From a virus: a stretch of DNA of 14,288 nucleotides. The position numbers were made by a program, and so were the translations under genes. Within the stretch, counting starts at the first letter, position 1; every line of letters begins with the position of its first letter. The DNA lies in UHGV virus genome UHGV-0232082. The stretch is one strand, 5' to 3'. Shown one piece after another: positions 666-4,813 of the stretch. The notes beneath the pieces were generated by a model. That model was not told where the DNA came from, did no database searches, and saw only the letters and a program-made list of their open reading frames with translations.

Positions 666-2145
666 CACCATTCCGTCGAATACGCTGGTTCCGCTGTTTT
701 ATGCGGAAATGGATAACCAGGCTGCGAATACTGCACAGGACAGCGGAGCATCGCTGCTGATTGGTCATGCCAATAACGGTGCAGAGATTGTTGCCAACAG
801 TCTGGTGCTGATGCCGTCGGCAGACTATGCATGCCAGATTTGTGGTGCGGGAAGTCAGCTGGCGCGTATGGTCGAGGCTTATCGCCAGACCGACCCGTTT
901 GGTGAGCTGTATGTGATTGCCGTTCCTGAATCCACGGGCGCGGCGGCAACGGTTACGCTGACGGTGACTGGAGCAGCAACCGAAAGCGGCACGGTGAATG
1001 TTTATGTGGGACGTACCCGCGTGCAGGCACCGGTGACCAACGGCGATAACGTCACGACGATTGCCAGCAGTATCCAGGATGCCATCAATGCCGTTCCGAC
1101 CCTGCCGTTTACGGCCTCATCTTCGGCAGGCGTGGTCACGCTGACCGCGCGTCATAAGGGGCTTTGCGGGAATGAAATTCCTGTCAGCCTCAATTACTAC
1201 GGCTTTGGTGGTGGCGAAGTGCTGCCAGCGGGTGTACAGATTGCTGTGGCGACGGGTACCGCCGGAACGGGCGCTCCGGTTCTCACCGGCGCGGTGGCTG
1301 CAATGGCGGATGAGCCGTTTGATTATATCGGCCTGCCGTTCAACGACACGGCCTCCGTTAACACGCTGGTGACCGAGATGAACGATACCAGCGGTCGCTG
1401 GAGCTATGCGCGTCAGCTGTATGGTCATGTGTATACGGCAAAGATCGGCACGCTGTCAGAACTGGTGACCGCAGGTGACCAGTTTAACCAGCAGCACATT
1501 ACCCTGGCGGGATACGAAAAAGACACCCAGACGCCTGCCGACGAGCTGGCGGCAAGCCGTACCGCCCGCGCAGCGGTGTTTATTCGCAACGATCCGGCAC
1601 GTCCCACGCAGACCGGTGAGCTGGTGGGTATGCTGCCTGCGCCGAAGGGGAAACGGTTCACGATGACAGAACAACAGACCCTGCTGTCTCATGGCGTGGC
1701 AACGGCGTATGTCGAAAGCGGGGTGCTGCGCATTCAGCGTGATGTCACCACGTACAGGGAAAATGCTTACGGGGTTGCGGATAACAGCTACCTCGACAGC
1801 GAGACGCTGCATACCAGTGCGTATGTACTGCGCAAACTGAAATCCGTCATTACCAGTAAGTACGGGCGTCACAAGCTTGCCAGCGACGGTACCCGCTTTG
1901 GTCCCGGTCAGGCGATTGTCACCCCGGCGGTGATCAAAGGGGAACTGCTGGCAACCTACCGTCAGCTCGAGCGTGCGGGCATCGTGGAAAACTACGAACT
2001 GTTTAAGCAGTACCTGGTTGTGGAGCGTGATGCCAGCGATCCAAATCGCCTGAACACGCTGTTCCCGCCTGACTATGTTAACCAGCTGCGTGTCTTTGCC
2101 GTGGTTAACCAGTTCCGTCTTCAGTATTCAGAGGAGTCCGCATAA
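649..2145 (+). CDS. Contractile tail sheath protein (Mu gpL / gp39-like)
   Basis: 498-aa ORF with RBS AAGGTG 7 nt upstream. Size and position (directly upstream of a 118-aa tube gene) match a Mu-type sheath. Stop overlaps the next start (TAATG). Confidence 0.85.
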   Translation: MTISFNTIPSNTLVPLFYAEMDNQAANTAQDSGASLLIGHANNGAEIVANSLVLMPSADYACQICGAGSQLARMVEAYRQTDPFGELYVIAVPESTGAAATVTLTVTGAATESGTVNVYVGRTRVQAPVTNGDNVTTIASSIQDAINAVPTLPFTASSSAGVVTLTARHKGLCGNEIPVSLNYYGFGGGEVLPAGVQIAVATGTAGTGAPVLTGAVAAMADEPFDYIGLPFNDTASVNTLVTEMNDTSGRWSYARQLYGHVYTAKIGTLSELVTAGDQFNQQHITLAGYEKDTQTPADELAASRTARAAVFIRNDPARPTQTGELVGMLPAPKGKRFTMTEQQTLLSHGVATAYVESGVLRIQRDVTTYRENAYGVADNSYLDSETLHTSAYVLRKLKSVITSKYGRHKLASDGTRFGPGQAIVTPAVIKGELLATYRQLERAGIVENYELFKQYLVVERDASDPNRLNTLFPPDYVNQLRVFAVVNQFRLQYSEESA

Positions 2146-2501
2146 TGGCCCGTATCGGGGGAACCTGTTATTTCAAGATTGACGGTCAGCAGCTATCGCT
2201 GACCGGCGGCATTGAGGTGCCCATGAACAAAACGGTTAATGATGACATCATCGGTCTGGACGGTTCAGTGGACCGCAAGGAAACTCACCGTGCACCTTAT
2301 GTCAAAGGGACCTTCAAGGTACCGAAGAATTTTCCGGTGAGCAAAATCACCTCGTCTGATGAGATGACCATCACTGCCGAGCTGGCGAACGGTCAGGTCT
2401 ATGTATTGTCGTCAGCCTGGCTGCACGGCGAAGCGAACCATAATGCCGAAGAAGGCACGGTCGATATTGAATTTCACGGTGAAGAAGGGGATTACCAGTG
2501 A
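2145..2501 (+). CDS. Tail tube protein (Mu gpM / gp40-like)
   Basis: 118-aa ORF immediately after the sheath gene with a 1-nt overlap; 4-nt overlap with the following gene. Canonical sheath-tube order. Confidence 0.8.
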   Translation: MARIGGTCYFKIDGQQLSLTGGIEVPMNKTVNDDIIGLDGSVDRKETHRAPYVKGTFKVPKNFPVSKITSSDEMTITAELANGQVYVLSSAWLHGEANHNAEEGTVDIEFHGEEGDYQ

Positions 2502-2821
2502 TTGAGCTTGTACTTAAAAAACCGATCATCGCCCACAAAGAAACACTGCATGTGTTGGAAATACGTGAGCCTACGTATGACGAGATTGAGGCGCTGGGGT
2601 TCCCTTTCTCTGTTTCGCCTGATGGTGGTATGAAAATGGACAGTCAGGTGGCGCTGAAATATATCCCGCTTCTGGCCGGGATCCCGCGCTCGTCTGCAGC
2701 GCAGATGACGAAGCTGGATATTTTCAAGGCAGGCATGATTGTAATGCGTTTTTTTACCGGCTTGGAGACGGAAGAGACCTCAGGAAGCGATTCTACAATG
2801 TCGCGTGGTTCTGGAAATTAA
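2498..2821 (+). CDS. Tail assembly chaperone (lambda G / Mu gp41-position protein), zero-frame product
   Basis: 107-aa ORF between the tube and tape-measure genes, the conserved position of the tail assembly chaperone. Contains a T7 run in its 3' part (see frameshift feature). Confidence 0.65.
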   Translation: MIELVLKKPIIAHKETLHVLEIREPTYDEIEALGFPFSVSPDGGMKMDSQVALKYIPLLAGIPRSSAAQMTKLDIFKAGMIVMRFFTGLETEETSGSDSTMSRGSGN

Positions 2822-2913
2822 ACCCACTTGAACTTCGCCGGACGGCTATTTCCCACTTTGCTGATCTGGAGGCAGAGGCCGTCCGTATAAATGAGGAGAT
2901 GAAGCATGGCTGA
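2498..2913 (+). other. Candidate programmed -1 ribosomal frameshift product of the tail chaperone gene (G-T-like fusion, about 140 aa); slippery heptamer T TTT TTT at 2749-2755
   Basis: Zero-frame codons CGT TTT TTT ACC place the T run in X XXY YYZ register. The -1 frame from 2755 stays open for 54 codons (YRLGDGRDLRKRFYNVAWFWKLNPLELRRTAISHFADLEAEAVRINEEMKHG) and stops at 2911-2913, 8 nt into the tape-measure ORF. The +1 frame hits a stop within about 25 codons. Confidence 0.4.
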
Positions 2914-4813
2914 TAATTTTCAGCTGAAAGCCATCATCACCGCCGTTGACAGGCTATCCGGCCCGCTTAAAGGTATGCAGCGTCAGCTTAAGGGATTTCA
3001 GAAAGAAGTCTCCAGCCTTGCTCTGGGTGCTGCCGGGGCGGGTACTGCAATAATGGGGGCACTGGCACTCCCTGTAAAATCAGCCATCACCCTTGAATCG
3101 AAGATGGCTGATGTCCGCAAAGTGGTGGACGGTCTGGATACGCCGGATGCATTTAAGGCCATGACGGAGCAGGTACGCGCTTTGTCTACAGAGCTTCCCA
3201 TGTCTGCAGACGGGATCGCGGAAATTGTGGCGGCTGGCGGTCAGGCCGGGATTGCACGTGATGAACTGATGCAGTTTGCCACTGATGCGGTGAAGATGGG
3301 CGTGGCCTTTGATACAACGGCTGAAGAGTCCGGGCAGATGATGGCCCAGTGGCGTACTGCGTTTAATATGACGCAGGATGAAGTGGCCGGGCTGGCTGAC
3401 AAAATCAACTACCTTGGTAATACCGGCCCGGCGAATGCGAAGAAAATCTCCGATATTGTTACGCGTATTGGTCCTTTAGGTGGTGTTGCAGGTGTGGCTT
3501 CCGGCGAAATTGCGGCAATGGGGGCAACCATTGCCGGGATGGGCGTGGAGTCAGAAATTGCCGCCACAGGGATCAAGAACTTCATGCTTTCCCTGACCGC
3601 GGGAAATTCTGCGACAAAATCGCAGAAACAGGCATTGCGTTTTCTGCGGATCAATCCGAAGAAATTAGCTGCTGATATGCAGAAAGATGCCCGGGGCACC
3701 ATGCTGTCTGTACTGGATGCGATGGCTAAAGTGCCTAAAGAAAAACGGGCCGCTGTGCTGAATGCCCTGTTCGGGAAAGAGTCTCTGGGCGCGATAGCAC
3801 CTCTGCTGACTAACCTTGATTTGTTGCGTACCAACTTCAGGCGGGTTGCGGATTCCCAGCAGTATGGCAGTTCGATGCAGAAGGAATATGCTTCGAGGGC
3901 AGCGACGACGGAAAACCAGCTTTTACTTCTGCAAAATCAACTTGATGCCATTTCTTCCACGCTGGGGGAAACGTTTCTTCCTGAGGTTAATGATGGTCTT
4001 GAAGCGGTAAAACCGCTCCTTGAGGAAGTGAGAACGTTTGTCCGTGAAAACCCGGAGCTCGTTAAGACCATTGCTAAAATCGGTCTGGCCTTACTGACGG
4101 TGGGAGCCGCTGCAGGCTCTTTGTCCAGAATTATGAAAGTTCTCGGCGGTGTGATGAATATGACGCCAGCTAAGGGGCTGATTGCTCTTCTGGTTGGTGG
4201 CGCTTACCTCATTATTGATAACTGGGAAACCGTAGGCCCTGTCATAAAAAAAGTCTGGCACGTGGTGGATGAAACGGCGCAGGCGATGGGGGGATGGGAA
4301 ACTGTTCTGAAAGCGATTGCCCTGTTTATGGCAACCAAATGGGTTGCTGACGTTACCAAATCCATTACCGCAGTGACCAGAGAGATGCGTACGCTGGGGA
4401 AGGTATCGGCAGAAACGGGATTGATGGGGAAAGGCCGCGGCTTTATCGGGAAGGCCGGGGGATATGGTTTTCTGGGAACCCTGATGTATGAGCCGGTTAA
4501 AGATACTCTGGAAAGTGTTGTTCCTGAAGATACGGTTAACTGGCTGGATAATAAAGGGCTGTTTCTGGCTTCAGACTGGACGCCTTTTTTTGATCGTAAA
4601 GAGTACGAGCAGTATCAGGCCAGCCTGAGCCAGTACAAACCCAATGTTCCGCTGTTGAATCCATCTTCTTCCATGACACAGCACAGCGAACTGAAAGTCA
4701 CGTTCGAGAATGCTCCGCCAGGTATGAAGATAATTGATGTACCGGGCAAAGCCGATCCCCTGATGAAAATCACGCACGATGTGGGGTATTCCCCTTTTCG
4801 TTTTCCACGATAA
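2906..4813 (+). CDS. Tail tape measure protein
   Basis: 635-aa ORF, RBS AGGAG at 2893-2897. Ala/Gly-rich, predicted helical protein with a hydrophobic segment (LALLTVGAAAGSL) in the conserved position after the chaperone. Confidence 0.8.
   Translation: MADNFQLKAIITAVDRLSGPLKGMQRQLKGFQKEVSSLALGAAGAGTAIMGALALPVKSAITLESKMADVRKVVDGLDTPDAFKAMTEQVRALSTELPMSADGIAEIVAAGGQAGIARDELMQFATDAVKMGVAFDTTAEESGQMMAQWRTAFNMTQDEVAGLADKINYLGNTGPANAKKISDIVTRIGPLGGVAGVASGEIAAMGATIAGMGVESEIAATGIKNFMLSLTAGNSATKSQKQALRFLRINPKKLAADMQKDARGTMLSVLDAMAKVPKEKRAAVLNALFGKESLGAIAPLLTNLDLLRTNFRRVADSQQYGSSMQKEYASRAATTENQLLLLQNQLDAISSTLGETFLPEVNDGLEAVKPLLEEVRTFVRENPELVKTIAKIGLALLTVGAAAGSLSRIMKVLGGVMNMTPAKGLIALLVGGAYLIIDNWETVGPVIKKVWHVVDETAQAMGGWETVLKAIALFMATKWVADVTKSITAVTREMRTLGKVSAETGLMGKGRGFIGKAGGYGFLGTLMYEPVKDTLESVVPEDTVNWLDNKGLFLASDWTPFFDRKEYEQYQASLSQYKPNVPLLNPSSSMTQHSELKVTFENAPPGMKIIDVPGKADPLMKITHDVGYSPFRFPR

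What the first reader, a model, noticed from the sequence alone, without database searches (positions are those of the whole stretch)
2498..2913. Candidate programmed -1 frameshift in the tail assembly chaperone gene
A U UUU UUU slippery heptamer (2749-2755) lies in the correct register within the chaperone ORF. The -1 frame then runs open for 54 protein-like codons, bridges the otherwise non-coding 84-bp gap between the chaperone and tape-measure genes, and stops 8 nt after the tape-measure start. The +1 frame closes quickly. This is the conserved G/G-T architecture of long-tailed phages and would yield a fusion of about 140 aa. It also explains the only sizeable gap in an otherwise overlapping gene array.
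Basis: partly seen in the sequence, partly recalled or inferred. Interest (0 to 1): 0.5.

Follow-up and report, generated by a model that had tools for sequence, protein, structure and literature searches.

The report
Unannotated tail-chaperone -1 frameshift site
The small gene between the tail-tube and tape-measure genes of this E. coli prophage almost certainly makes a second, longer protein when ribosomes slip back one base on a run of seven U's; this trick is well known in long-tailed phages, so the case is real but ordinary and simply missing from the public annotations.

Summary
The window is an SfIV/SfV/phiP27/ST64B-type E. coli prophage with a Mu-like contractile tail.

- **The site.** T7 (2749-2755) lies in X_XXY_YYZ register inside the 107-aa tail assembly chaperone gene (2498-2821, PF10109). 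After a -1 slip, 52 new codons cross the 84-nt "gap" and end at TGA 2911-2913, overlapping the tape-measure ATG (2906). The predicted fusion is 138 aa.
- **Conservation.** Across 47 distinct homologues (as low as 38% identity in the N domain) every intact copy keeps NNT TTT TTY at the same Phe-Phe. The residue before it varies (G/N/R/S), but its third base is always T.
- **Coding signal.** The -1 frame stays open for 50-57 codons, and its stop ends 7 nt past the first base of the tape-measure start in most copies. Substitutions in the "gap" fall on -1-frame third positions (window versus phiP27: 11 synonymous, 4 non-synonymous).
- **No own start.** The -1 frame has no start codon before 2899.
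- **Closest relative.** The annotated P2 E/E+E' frameshift (TTTTTTG) sits at the homologous position with the same 8-nt overlap.
- **What is missing.** No downstream stimulatory RNA structure was found in the window. None of the 13 annotated records inspected for this family annotates the fusion. No protein-level evidence exists.

Verdict: an unannotated new member of a known kind; low interest.

The parts
2145..2501 (+). Tail tube gene (118 aa), immediately upstream; its stop overlaps the chaperone GTG (GTGA).
   Evidence: PF10618 Tail_tube, E 8.5e-33; coordinates.
2498..2821 (+). Tail assembly chaperone, zero-frame product (107 aa); analogue of lambda gpG and P2 gpE.
   Evidence: PF10109 Phage_TAC_7, E 1.2e-7; the match covers residues 5-86 and so ends exactly at the slip site. 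phrog_166 'tail protein', E 1.3e-25. RefSeq calls it 'phage tail assembly protein'.
2749..2755 (+). Slippery heptamer T_TTT_TTT (U_UUU_UUU) in X_XXY_YYZ register: CG[T TTT TTT] = Arg84-Phe85-Phe86.
   Evidence: NNT TTT TTY is invariant in all intact homologues. Third-position entropy is 0 at the preceding codon, although its amino acid varies G/N/R/S, and 0 at Phe85.
2755..2913 (+). -1 frame extension ('T'/E'-like domain): 52 codons, YRLGDGRDLRKRFYNVAWFWKLNPLELRRTAISHFADLEAEAVRINEEMKHG, then TGA.
   Evidence: Matches phrog_32181, E 4.5e-6. Conserved motif Y-x-x-A-x-(F/Y)-W-(K/R)-x-N-P...A-x-R-I. Entropy by codon position 1.00/0.78/1.44. No ATG/GTG/TTG in this frame from 2623 to 2898.
2498..2913 (+). 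Predicted frameshift product, join(2498..2755, 2755..2913): 138 aa, residues 1-86 shared with the chaperone.
   Evidence: tblastn of this fusion finds two collinear pieces in two frames in 28 of 30 phage records.
2822..2905 (+). Apparent 84-nt intergenic gap; in fact -1-frame coding sequence.
   Evidence: Window-type versus phiP27: 17 differences, 14 of them at -1-frame third positions. Codon changes are 11 synonymous / 4 non-synonymous in the -1 frame against 2/15 and 1/15 in the other two frames.
2893..2898 (+). GAGGAG Shine-Dalgarno-like sequence, 7 nt upstream of the tape-measure ATG and embedded in the -1-frame codons N-E-E-M.
   Evidence: Read directly from the sequence; its function is inferred.
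2906..4813 (+). Tape measure protein gene (635 aa); its first 8 nt (ATGGCTGA) overlap the end of the frameshift product.
   Evidence: PF10145 PhageMin_Tail, E 1.2e-42. The -1 stop ends 7 nt past the first base of the ATG in most homologues and in P2 (ATGAGTAA).

Best explanation

Most ribosomes read 2498-2821 and release the 107-aa chaperone. A minority slip when tRNA-Phe occupies both the P site (UUU 2750-2752) and the A site (UUU 2753-2755). Both tRNAs re-pair one base upstream (UUU 2749-2751 and 2752-2754). Translation then continues with UAC at 2755 through 52 further codons and stops at UGA 2911-2913, inside the start of the tape-measure gene. The product is a 138-aa protein with the same N-terminal 86 residues and a new helical-looking C-terminal domain.

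By homology with P2 gpE/gpE+E' and analogy with lambda gpG/gpGT, the two proteins are made in a fixed ratio and are both needed for tail assembly. In lambda they coat the tape-measure protein and recruit the tail-tube subunit, and neither ends up in the virion.

Shown here: the sequence geometry, the conservation of the slip site, the coding-type selection on the -1 frame, and homology to the P2 E family. Inferred: that slippage is ribosomal, its efficiency, and the assembly role.
For: - **Geometry:**
- **Gene context:** sheath, tube, PF10109 chaperone, tape measure, Mu-type baseplate.
- **First homologues:** nine annotated homologous loci (SfIV, 720R4, phiP27, ST64B, SfV, Pantoea AH07, Edwardsiella EPP-1, Yersinia YeP1 and an identical E. 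coli copy) all carry TTTTTTT or TTTTTTC at the same codon, followed by a 52-53-codon -1 ORF whose stop ends 7-10 nt past the first base of the tape-measure start.
- **Wider survey:** among 126 loci and 47 distinct fusion proteins, every intact copy has NNT TTT TTY. The two silent positions never vary, while ordinary third positions average 1.4-1.6 bits. The zero-frame tail after the slip varies from 3 to 26 codons, whereas the -1 extension stays at 50-57 codons.
- **Selection:** substitution pattern and synonymous/non-synonymous counts show purifying selection in the -1 frame across the 'gap'.
- **No independent initiation:** no start codon in the -1 frame before 2899.
- **More distant phages:** Pseudomonas DVM-2008 (TTTTTTC), Pseudomonas PG1 (TTTTTTG) and Burkholderia BgVeeders33 (TTTTTTC) keep the site and the -1 ORF.
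- **P2:** RefSeq annotates E+E' as a -1 frameshift at TTTTTTG. PF10109 ends at the slip site in both proteins, the local context is VGF(L/F) in both, and the 8-nt overlap with the tape-measure start is the same. This is summarised in PMC3091744.
- **Slipperiness of the motif:** U_UUU_UUU and U_UUU_UUC are measurably frameshift-prone in E. coli (0.33% and 0.12% unstimulated; 10% and 7.6% with a pseudoknot), and U7 is strongly avoided in E. coli genes (z = -15.6) (PMC4066793 supplement).
- **General phenomenon:** reviewed in PMC5009743.
Against: - There is no protein-level evidence for the fusion in this or any close relative.
- No stimulatory element was found. The 80 nt downstream fold less stably than shuffled controls (z = +1.35), there is no Rfam match, and there is no conserved upstream Shine-Dalgarno-like sequence. 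If the reporter value of about 0.3% applied, the fusion would be very scarce. Lambda and P2 also lack known stimulators.
- The -1 extension does not match Pfam PF06528 (the P2 E' domain). Profile-to-sequence alignment with P2 E+E' is collinear but weak (E 0.0018, probability 15%).
- One relative, Paraburkholderia phage IPK (an UNVERIFIED record), encodes Phe-Phe as TTC TTC with no heptamer.
- A homopolymer of seven T could also support some transcriptional slippage.
Confidence: 0.85

Rival explanations
1. Transcriptional slippage. RNA polymerase stutters on the T7 run and produces a subpopulation of mRNAs with U8, which encode the same 138-aa fusion in frame. Ribosomes do not shift.
For: - The run is a pure homopolymer.
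- PMC4066793 attributes the strong avoidance of U7 and A7 in all three frames partly to transcriptional slippage and indel mutation.
- Database variants with T5 (P0001) and T8 (L048) show the run is length-unstable, at least at the DNA or sequencing level.
Against: - A large subgroup of homologues (SfV, SfI, SfII, AH07, EPP-1, Kosakonia, Pseudomonas, Burkholderia) has only T6 followed by C, and P2 and PG1 have T6G. From general knowledge, not tested here, efficient bacterial transcriptional slippage needs runs of about 8-9 or more.
- The X_XXY_YYZ register is kept in every intact copy, which transcription does not require.
- The P2 site is annotated and described as translational (PMC3091744).
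Confidence: 0.08
2. The -1 frame ORF is a separate small gene with its own translation start, as some phage records with phrog_32181-type ORFs imply, and is not a fusion.
For: The extension matches phrog_32181, a family of about 63-aa stand-alone ORFs of unknown function (E 4.5e-6). A 66-aa stand-alone representative (P0103) exists in the protein library.
Against: - In the window the -1 frame (open 2623-2913) has no ATG, GTG or TTG until 2899, four codons before its stop.
- A HMMER scan of 1.84 billion representative proteins finds only 7 hits to the extension, and the ones also seen are indel or deletion chimeras. Gene callers therefore almost never find a start for it.
Confidence: 0.02
3. 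Chance. The T run merely encodes Phe-Phe, the open -1 frame is fortuitous, and 2822-2905 is a non-coding spacer holding the tape-measure ribosome-binding site.
For: 5.5% of in-frame positions in the tail genes are followed by 52 or more open -1 codons. No stimulatory RNA structure was found.
Against: - The silent bases of the heptamer are invariant across 47 distinct homologues.
- The -1 frame stays open with a conserved peptide at 19-83% identity.
- Differences in the spacer fall on -1-frame third positions, 11 synonymous to 4 non-synonymous.
- The T run is not part of a terminator.
Confidence: 0.02
4. A Mu-type -2 (or +1) frameshift, since the tail module is Mu-like and Mu gp41 is reported to shift by -2.
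For: The sheath, tube and baseplate genes are Mu-type. Mu's -2 shift is reported by Xu et al. 2004, as cited in PMC2628397 and PMC5009743. In Mu the +1 frame, not the -1 frame, crosses the gap.
Against: In the window the +1 frame closes at 2831, 10 nt after the zero-frame stop and 75 nt before the tape-measure ATG. In homologues it is open for only 10-77 codons, without a consistent end point.
Confidence: 0.01

Closest known systems
Phage P2 gpE / gpE+E' (-1 frameshift at TTTTTTG in the FETUD tail operon; Christie et al. 2002 as cited in PMC3091744; RefSeq NC_001895)
   Same: - Same Pfam family for the shared N domain (PF10109), with the match ending at the slip site in both.
- U6N heptamer at the homologous V-G-F-(L/F) position, near codon 84-86.
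- Similar sizes: 91/142 aa in P2 against 107/138 aa here (89/139 in SfV).
- The -1 ORF has no own start in the window; P2 was not checked for this.
- The -1 stop overlaps the tape-measure ATG by 8 nt (ATGAGTAA versus ATGGCTGA).
- No downstream structure (PMC3091744).
- Contractile tail.
   Different: - The heptamer ends in T (T7), not G.
- N domains are about 16% identical by hhalign.
- The extension does not reach the Pfam PF06528 (Phage_P2_GpE) threshold.
- The zero-frame tail after the slip is 21 codons here against 6 in P2.
- The surrounding tail module is Mu-type, not P2-type.
Phage lambda gpG / gpGT (-1 frameshift at G_GGA_AAG; Levin et al. 1993; Xu et al. 2004, 2013, 2014, as reviewed in PMC5009743)
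   Same: The gene pair sits between the major tail (tube) gene and the tape-measure gene. [quoted passage not shown] The functional model is two chaperones in a fixed ratio, absent from virions.
   Different: No detectable sequence similarity; a different slippery heptamer and different tRNAs (Gly/Lys versus Phe/Phe); a siphovirus tail; in lambda the -1 ORF (T) is a recognisable separate reading frame of 144 codons.
Phage Mu gp41 (tail assembly chaperone; -2 frameshift)
   Same: Homologous tail module (sheath L, tube M, tape measure gp42, N, P, gp45-48) and the same gene position. By its name ('E, or 41 or 14'), PF10109 is meant to cover gp41; this was not tested here.
   Different: Mu shifts by -2 into the +1 frame (PMC2628397, PMC5009743; frames). 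gp41 is 144 aa. Here the +1 frame is closed and the -1 frame is the conserved one.

Membership tests
Conserved tail-assembly-chaperone programmed frameshift (lambda G/GT, P2 E/E+E' class) | The gene pair lies between the major tail/tube gene and the tape-measure gene. | tested here: met
   Tube 2145-2501, chaperone 2498-2821, tape measure 2906-4813.
Conserved tail-assembly-chaperone programmed frameshift (lambda G/GT, P2 E/E+E' class) | [quoted passage not shown] | tested here: met
   T_TTT_TTT at 2749-2755, 21 codons before the zero-frame stop.
Conserved tail-assembly-chaperone programmed frameshift (lambda G/GT, P2 E/E+E' class) | The shifted frame is open from the slip site to about the tape-measure start and has no initiation signal of its own. 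| tested here: met
   52 codons, with TGA overlapping the ATG by 8 nt; no ATG/GTG/TTG from 2623 to 2898.
Conserved tail-assembly-chaperone programmed frameshift (lambda G/GT, P2 E/E+E' class) | The slip site and the shifted ORF are conserved in divergent relatives despite low sequence identity. | tested here: met
   47 distinct homologues; invariant silent bases; -1 extension of 50-57 codons; coding-type substitution pattern.
Conserved tail-assembly-chaperone programmed frameshift (lambda G/GT, P2 E/E+E' class) | Both the short and the frameshifted protein are detected in infected or induced cells. | not testable with these tools
   Needs mass spectrometry, western blot or ribosome profiling.
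Conserved tail-assembly-chaperone programmed frameshift (lambda G/GT, P2 E/E+E' class) | Both products are required, in the right ratio, for tail assembly, and both are absent from virions. | not testable with these tools
   Needs genetics. Inferred only from lambda and P2 (PMC5009743, PMC3091744).
P2 gpE family (Pfam PF10109 N domain plus PF06528 E' domain) | The N-terminal domain matches PF10109 above the gathering score. | tested here: met
   32.1 bits against a cut-off of 25, residues 5-86. SfV-type relative 56.7 bits; P2 47.8 bits.
P2 gpE family (Pfam PF10109 N domain plus PF06528 E' domain) | The frameshift extension matches PF06528 (Phage_P2_GpE). | tested here: not met
   No hit even at E <= 10. 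hhalign of the 7-sequence fusion alignment against P2 E+E' is collinear through the extension but weak (E 0.0018, probability 15%). Homology of the extension is therefore possible but unproven.
Mu gp41-type -2 frameshift | The +1/-2 frame, not the -1 frame, bridges the chaperone stop and the tape-measure start. | tested here: not met
   The +1 frame closes at 2831.
Transcriptional slippage (programmed RNA polymerase stuttering) | Long homopolymer (about 8-9 or more A/T) conserved as a run irrespective of reading register. | tested here: not met
   The run is 7 here and only 6 in many functional-looking relatives. The register is always X_XXY_YYZ. The length threshold comes from general knowledge and was not measured here.

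The most novel reading that the evidence does not exclude
The U6N slip site at the V-G-F-(F/L) position may be an ancestral feature of the whole PF10109 chaperone family. It is retained from P2 through SfV/SfIV/ST64B-type Mu-like tails to Pseudomonas and Burkholderia phages, which would make Mu's own -2 shift the derived exception.

The equally conserved 8-nt overlap of the fusion's stop with the tape-measure ATG (ATGNNTRA) may be functional. It could couple tape-measure initiation to termination of the frameshifted ribosomes.

In addition, the T7 (as opposed to T6C/T6G) allele may add a transcriptional-slippage or hypermutable-homopolymer component, since T5 and T8 variants are seen in databases.
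Probability: 0.2. Interest if true: 0.3.

Novelty: new member of a known kind. Interest (0 to 1): 0.15.

Why it matters
The main value is for annotation. One real protein, needed for tail assembly, is missing from the 13 annotated records inspected for this family (RefSeq E. coli, SfIV, 720R4, phiP27, ST64B, SfV, AH07, EPP-1, YeP1, DVM-2008, PG1, BgVeeders33 and Mu). The SfIV genome paper calls the gene a hypothetical protein. The 84-141-nt 'intergenic gaps' in these prophages are coding sequence.

The prophage family is common: the query region matches 1,080 of 5,426 complete E. coli genomes, 211 of them at 80% coverage or more. It also carries O-antigen serotype-conversion genes.

The result adds a clean comparative data set. 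It shows that Mu-like tails outside Mu itself use the P2-type -1 U6N site rather than Mu's -2 shift. It does not change the understanding of frameshifting or of tail assembly.

Tried and rejected
- **Downstream stimulatory structure.** Folding 2756-2835 and 2720-2920 gave z = +1.35 and -0.05, and the upstream 52 nt gave z = +0.48. Rfam at E <= 1 found nothing in 2400-3000.
- **Upstream Shine-Dalgarno-like stimulator.** Some T6C relatives have GGGAGG 8-14 nt upstream because of W-E-V codons. It is not conserved and is absent from the window.
- **T run as an intrinsic terminator.** No terminator-like site in 2300-3100.
- **Pfam and NCBIfam on the extension.** No hits.
- **AlphaFold2 of the fusion.** Run on P0001, a 137-aa T5-allele variant, without an alignment. 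Mean pLDDT was 54.5, too low for a fold search. It only hints that the extension is helical. No fold search was run.
- **HMMER of the extension against 1.84 billion representative proteins.** Only 7 hits. This is informative only in showing that gene callers never call this ORF. One hit is a 998-aa repetitive protein that was not pursued.
- **Literature.** Xu et al. 2004 and Christie et al. 2002 are not in the held library. I could not check whether SfV, ST64B or phiP27 were among the 28 phages Xu et al. listed. No held paper combines SfV, serotype-converting and 'translational frameshift'. The SfIV paper does not mention a frameshift.
- **Sharma et al. 2014 prophage clusters.** The four of five clusters that could be read do not include a T_TTT_TTT tail gene.

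Full report
**What the window is.**
Pfam places a complete Mu-type contractile-tail module on the + strand:
- tail terminator (88-486) and DUF2635/Mu gp38-like (495-665);
- sheath (649-2145) and tube (2145-2501);
- a 107-aa PF10109 'tail assembly chaperone E/41/14' protein (2498-2821);
- tape measure (2906-4813);
- Mu N-, P-, gp45-, gp46-, gp47(Baseplate_J)- and gp48-like baseplate proteins;
- a fibre gene and a fibre assembly protein.

The 1,156 nt around the finding are 100% identical to prophages in many E. coli chromosomes. They are 98% identical to Shigella phage SfIV, 77% to phiP27 and 72% to ST64B. The region matches 1,080 of 5,426 complete E. coli genomes, 211 of them over at least 80% of the query.

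**Checking the observation.**
- The T7 run is at 2749-2755. Base 2749 is the third base of CGT (Arg84), followed by TTT TTT (Phe85, Phe86), so the run is T_TTT_TTT in X_XXY_YYZ register.
- After a -1 slip the next codon is TAC at 2755. Fifty-two sense codons follow (YRLGDG...RINEEMKHG), then TGA at 2911-2913.
- The zero-frame stop is at 2819-2821, so 2822-2905 is the 84-nt gap. The -1 stop overlaps the tape-measure ATG (2906) by 8 nt (ATGGCTGA). The fusion is 138 aa.
- The +1 frame stays open to 2831. That is longer than 'closes quickly' implies, but it does not cross the gap.
- The other gene junctions in the array range from -14 to +24 nt.
- As a single-sequence statistic the finding is only moderately unusual. 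There are 11 in-register heptamers in 3,465 codons, and 5.5% of positions are followed by 52 or more open -1 codons.

- In eight annotated phage records and an identical E. coli chromosomal copy (nine loci), the chaperone is followed by a gap of 84-141 nt. Each carries TTTTTTT or TTTTTTC at codon 84-89. Each is followed by a 52-53-codon -1 ORF whose stop ends 7-10 nt past the first base of the tape-measure start.
- I then collected 117 more loci from bacterial genomes and IMG/VR, giving 47 distinct fusion proteins.
- Every intact copy reads NNT TTT TTY at the same invariant Phe-Phe.
- The codon before it encodes Gly, Asn, Arg or Ser in those 47, and Val in one further copy set aside from the alignment. 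It always ends in T. The first Phe is always TTT, never TTC. Third-position entropy at these two codons is 0, against a mean of 1.4-1.6 bits elsewhere. The only other zero column is Met/Trp/Glu.
- After the slip, the zero-frame tail ranges from 3 to 26 codons and is poorly conserved. The -1 extension stays at 50-57 codons and carries a conserved motif, Y-x-x-A-x-(F/Y)-W-(K/R)-x-N-P ... A-x-R-I.
- Entropy by codon position in the extension is 1.00/0.78/1.44, the same periodicity as the N domain (0.91/0.73/1.56).
- In the part of the extension that lies in the 'non-coding' gap, window-type versus phiP27 shows 17 differences, 14 of them at -1-frame third positions. Codon changes are 11 synonymous / 4 non-synonymous in the -1 frame, against 2/15 and 1/15 in the other frames. 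Three further pairs give the same picture.
- More distant phages keep the arrangement: Pseudomonas DVM-2008 (TTTTTTC), PG1 (TTTTTTG) and Burkholderia BgVeeders33 (TTTTTTC).
- tblastn with the 138-aa fusion finds two collinear pieces in two frames in 28 of 30 phage records.

**Why a fusion rather than a separate gene.**
- The -1 frame is open from 2623 to 2913 but contains no ATG, GTG or TTG before 2899.
- The extension matches phrog_32181, a family of small stand-alone ORFs of unknown function (E 4.5e-6).
- A full HMMER scan of 1.84 billion representative proteins finds only 7 hits to it.
- Database proteins that cover the whole fusion are indel variants, not annotated frameshift products: a T5 allele, a +1 G insertion, and double-shifted assemblies.
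- None of the 13 annotated records inspected for this family annotates a joined CDS. The SfIV genome paper calls the gene a hypothetical protein.

**Mechanism.**
The heptamer allows tandem re-pairing of two tRNA-Phe.
- U_UUU_UUU and U_UUU_UUC are among the frameshift-prone motifs measured in E. coli: 0.33% and 0.12% without a stimulator, 10.2% and 7.6% with the IS3 pseudoknot.
- U7 is strongly under-represented in E. coli genes, with z = -15.6 in this register (PMC4066793 supplement).
- I found no stimulator in the window. Downstream folds are no more stable than shuffles (z = +1.35 and -0.05). There is no Rfam match, no conserved upstream Shine-Dalgarno-like sequence, and no terminator. PMC3091744 reports that P2 also lacks a downstream structure.
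- Transcriptional slippage could add to the fusion on a T7 run. It is unlikely to be the main route, because many relatives and P2 manage with T6C or T6G and the register is always kept.

**Comparison with known systems.**
- *P2 E/E+E'* is the closest. RefSeq annotates a -1 shift at TTTTTTG. PF10109 ends at the slip site in both proteins. The local peptide is VGF(L/F). Sizes are 91/142 aa against 107/138 aa. The -1 stop overlaps the tape-measure ATG by the same 8 nt.
- The extension itself does not reach Pfam PF06528, the P2 E' domain. It aligns with P2 E' only weakly (hhalign E 0.0018, probability 15%). I therefore file the N domain in the family but leave homology of the extension open.
- *Lambda G/GT* is the functional paradigm (PMC5009743) but shows no detectable sequence relationship.
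- *Mu*, whose tail genes are otherwise the closest relatives, is reported to use a -2 shift (PMC2628397, PMC5009743). In Mu the +1 frame crosses the gap, whereas here it is closed.

**Verdict.**
The finding is correct and is a textbook tail-chaperone frameshift that public annotation has missed. It is a new member of a known kind. Confidence that the -1 frame is expressed as a fusion through slippage at the T run is about 0.85-0.9. What remains untested is the protein itself, the efficiency of the shift, and the split between ribosomal and transcriptional slippage.

Noticed in passing
window 11526-14288 (- strand): An O-antigen glucosylation (serotype-conversion) cluster: GtrA (13926-14288, PF04138), GtrB (13000-13929, PF00535) and a type-specific Gtr (11526-13013, PF14264). 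The G+C content of 11401-13200 is only 30-34%, against 50-60% in the tail genes. This fits an SfIV-like serotype-converting prophage.
   Followed up: partly
L047 (Shigella flexneri VA-6), about 27 nt downstream of the heptamer; proteins P0003, P0004, P0007: A +1 G insertion (CCGGAAAC to CCGGGAAAC) hard-wires the chaperone into the -1 frame. The zero frame then encodes a 140-142-aa fusion directly. P0007 is recorded on 661 contigs, so this is a fixed allele in S. flexneri rather than a sequencing error. It would presumably lose the short chaperone and may mark a tail-defective prophage.
   Followed up: partly
L048 (IMG/VR 2534681784_000009); P0001; L022: Length variants of the slippery run. T8 in L048 puts the fusion in frame. 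T5 in P0001 (9 member sequences) gives a 137-aa in-frame fusion lacking one Phe. GTT TTT TTT in L022 is a T8 run but still in register. These are either homopolymer sequencing errors or real slippage mutations.
   Followed up: partly
L006 (SfV), L007, L008, L029, L036: about 44-63 nt downstream of the TTTTTTC heptamer: The SfV-type subgroup has a conserved 8-bp hairpin, TGCGCCAG-NNA-CTGGCGCA, encoded by the -1-frame residues C-A-(S/R)-(Y/F)-W-R. The 70 nt downstream fold with z = -1.9 to -3.7. It lies too far from the slip site for a classical stimulator and is absent from the window's subgroup (AATGTCGCGTGGTTCTGG).
   Followed up: partly
L129 (Paraburkholderia phage IPK, UNVERIFIED record) 601-1106: The homologous chaperone encodes Phe-Phe as TTC TTC with no slippery heptamer. 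The -1 frame, which carries the conserved ...AHFWNVSP... extension, opens only 9 nt before the zero-frame stop. A shift would have to occur at a non-canonical site (...GAG GGC GCG TAA), or the record contains an error.
   Followed up: no
window 4246-4252, 4585-4591 and 4792-4798 (tape measure gene): Three more in-register slippery heptamers lie inside the tape-measure gene. A_AAA_AAA has a -1 stop after 6 codons. T_TTT_TTT has an immediate -1 stop. C_CCT_TTT lies 4 codons before the stop and has a 33-codon -1 ORF that runs past it. They are probably chance. Conservation was not checked.
   Followed up: no
L015, L023, L028 (Arsenophonus and Candidatus Pantoea bathycoeliae insect symbionts): The chaperone gene is broken by frameshifts or truncations and the T run is lost, consistent with decaying prophages in reduced symbiont genomes.
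   Followed up: no
P0087 (117 aa, PF05135 head-tail connector) and P0085 (165 aa, PF14359): These E. coli proteins match the query only over its C-terminal extension (39% of the query, 98-100% identity; residues 66-117 of P0087), while their Pfam domains belong to unrelated head or neck families. They look like deletion chimeras in degraded prophages.
   Followed up: no
window 2906-2913; L127 (P2) 1851-1858: The 8-nt overlap between the stop of the frameshift product and the tape-measure ATG is the same in P2 (ATGAGTAA) and in the window (ATGGCTGA). It holds in most of the 47 distinct homologues. This hints at a constraint, possibly translational coupling, beyond simple compaction.
   Followed up: partly
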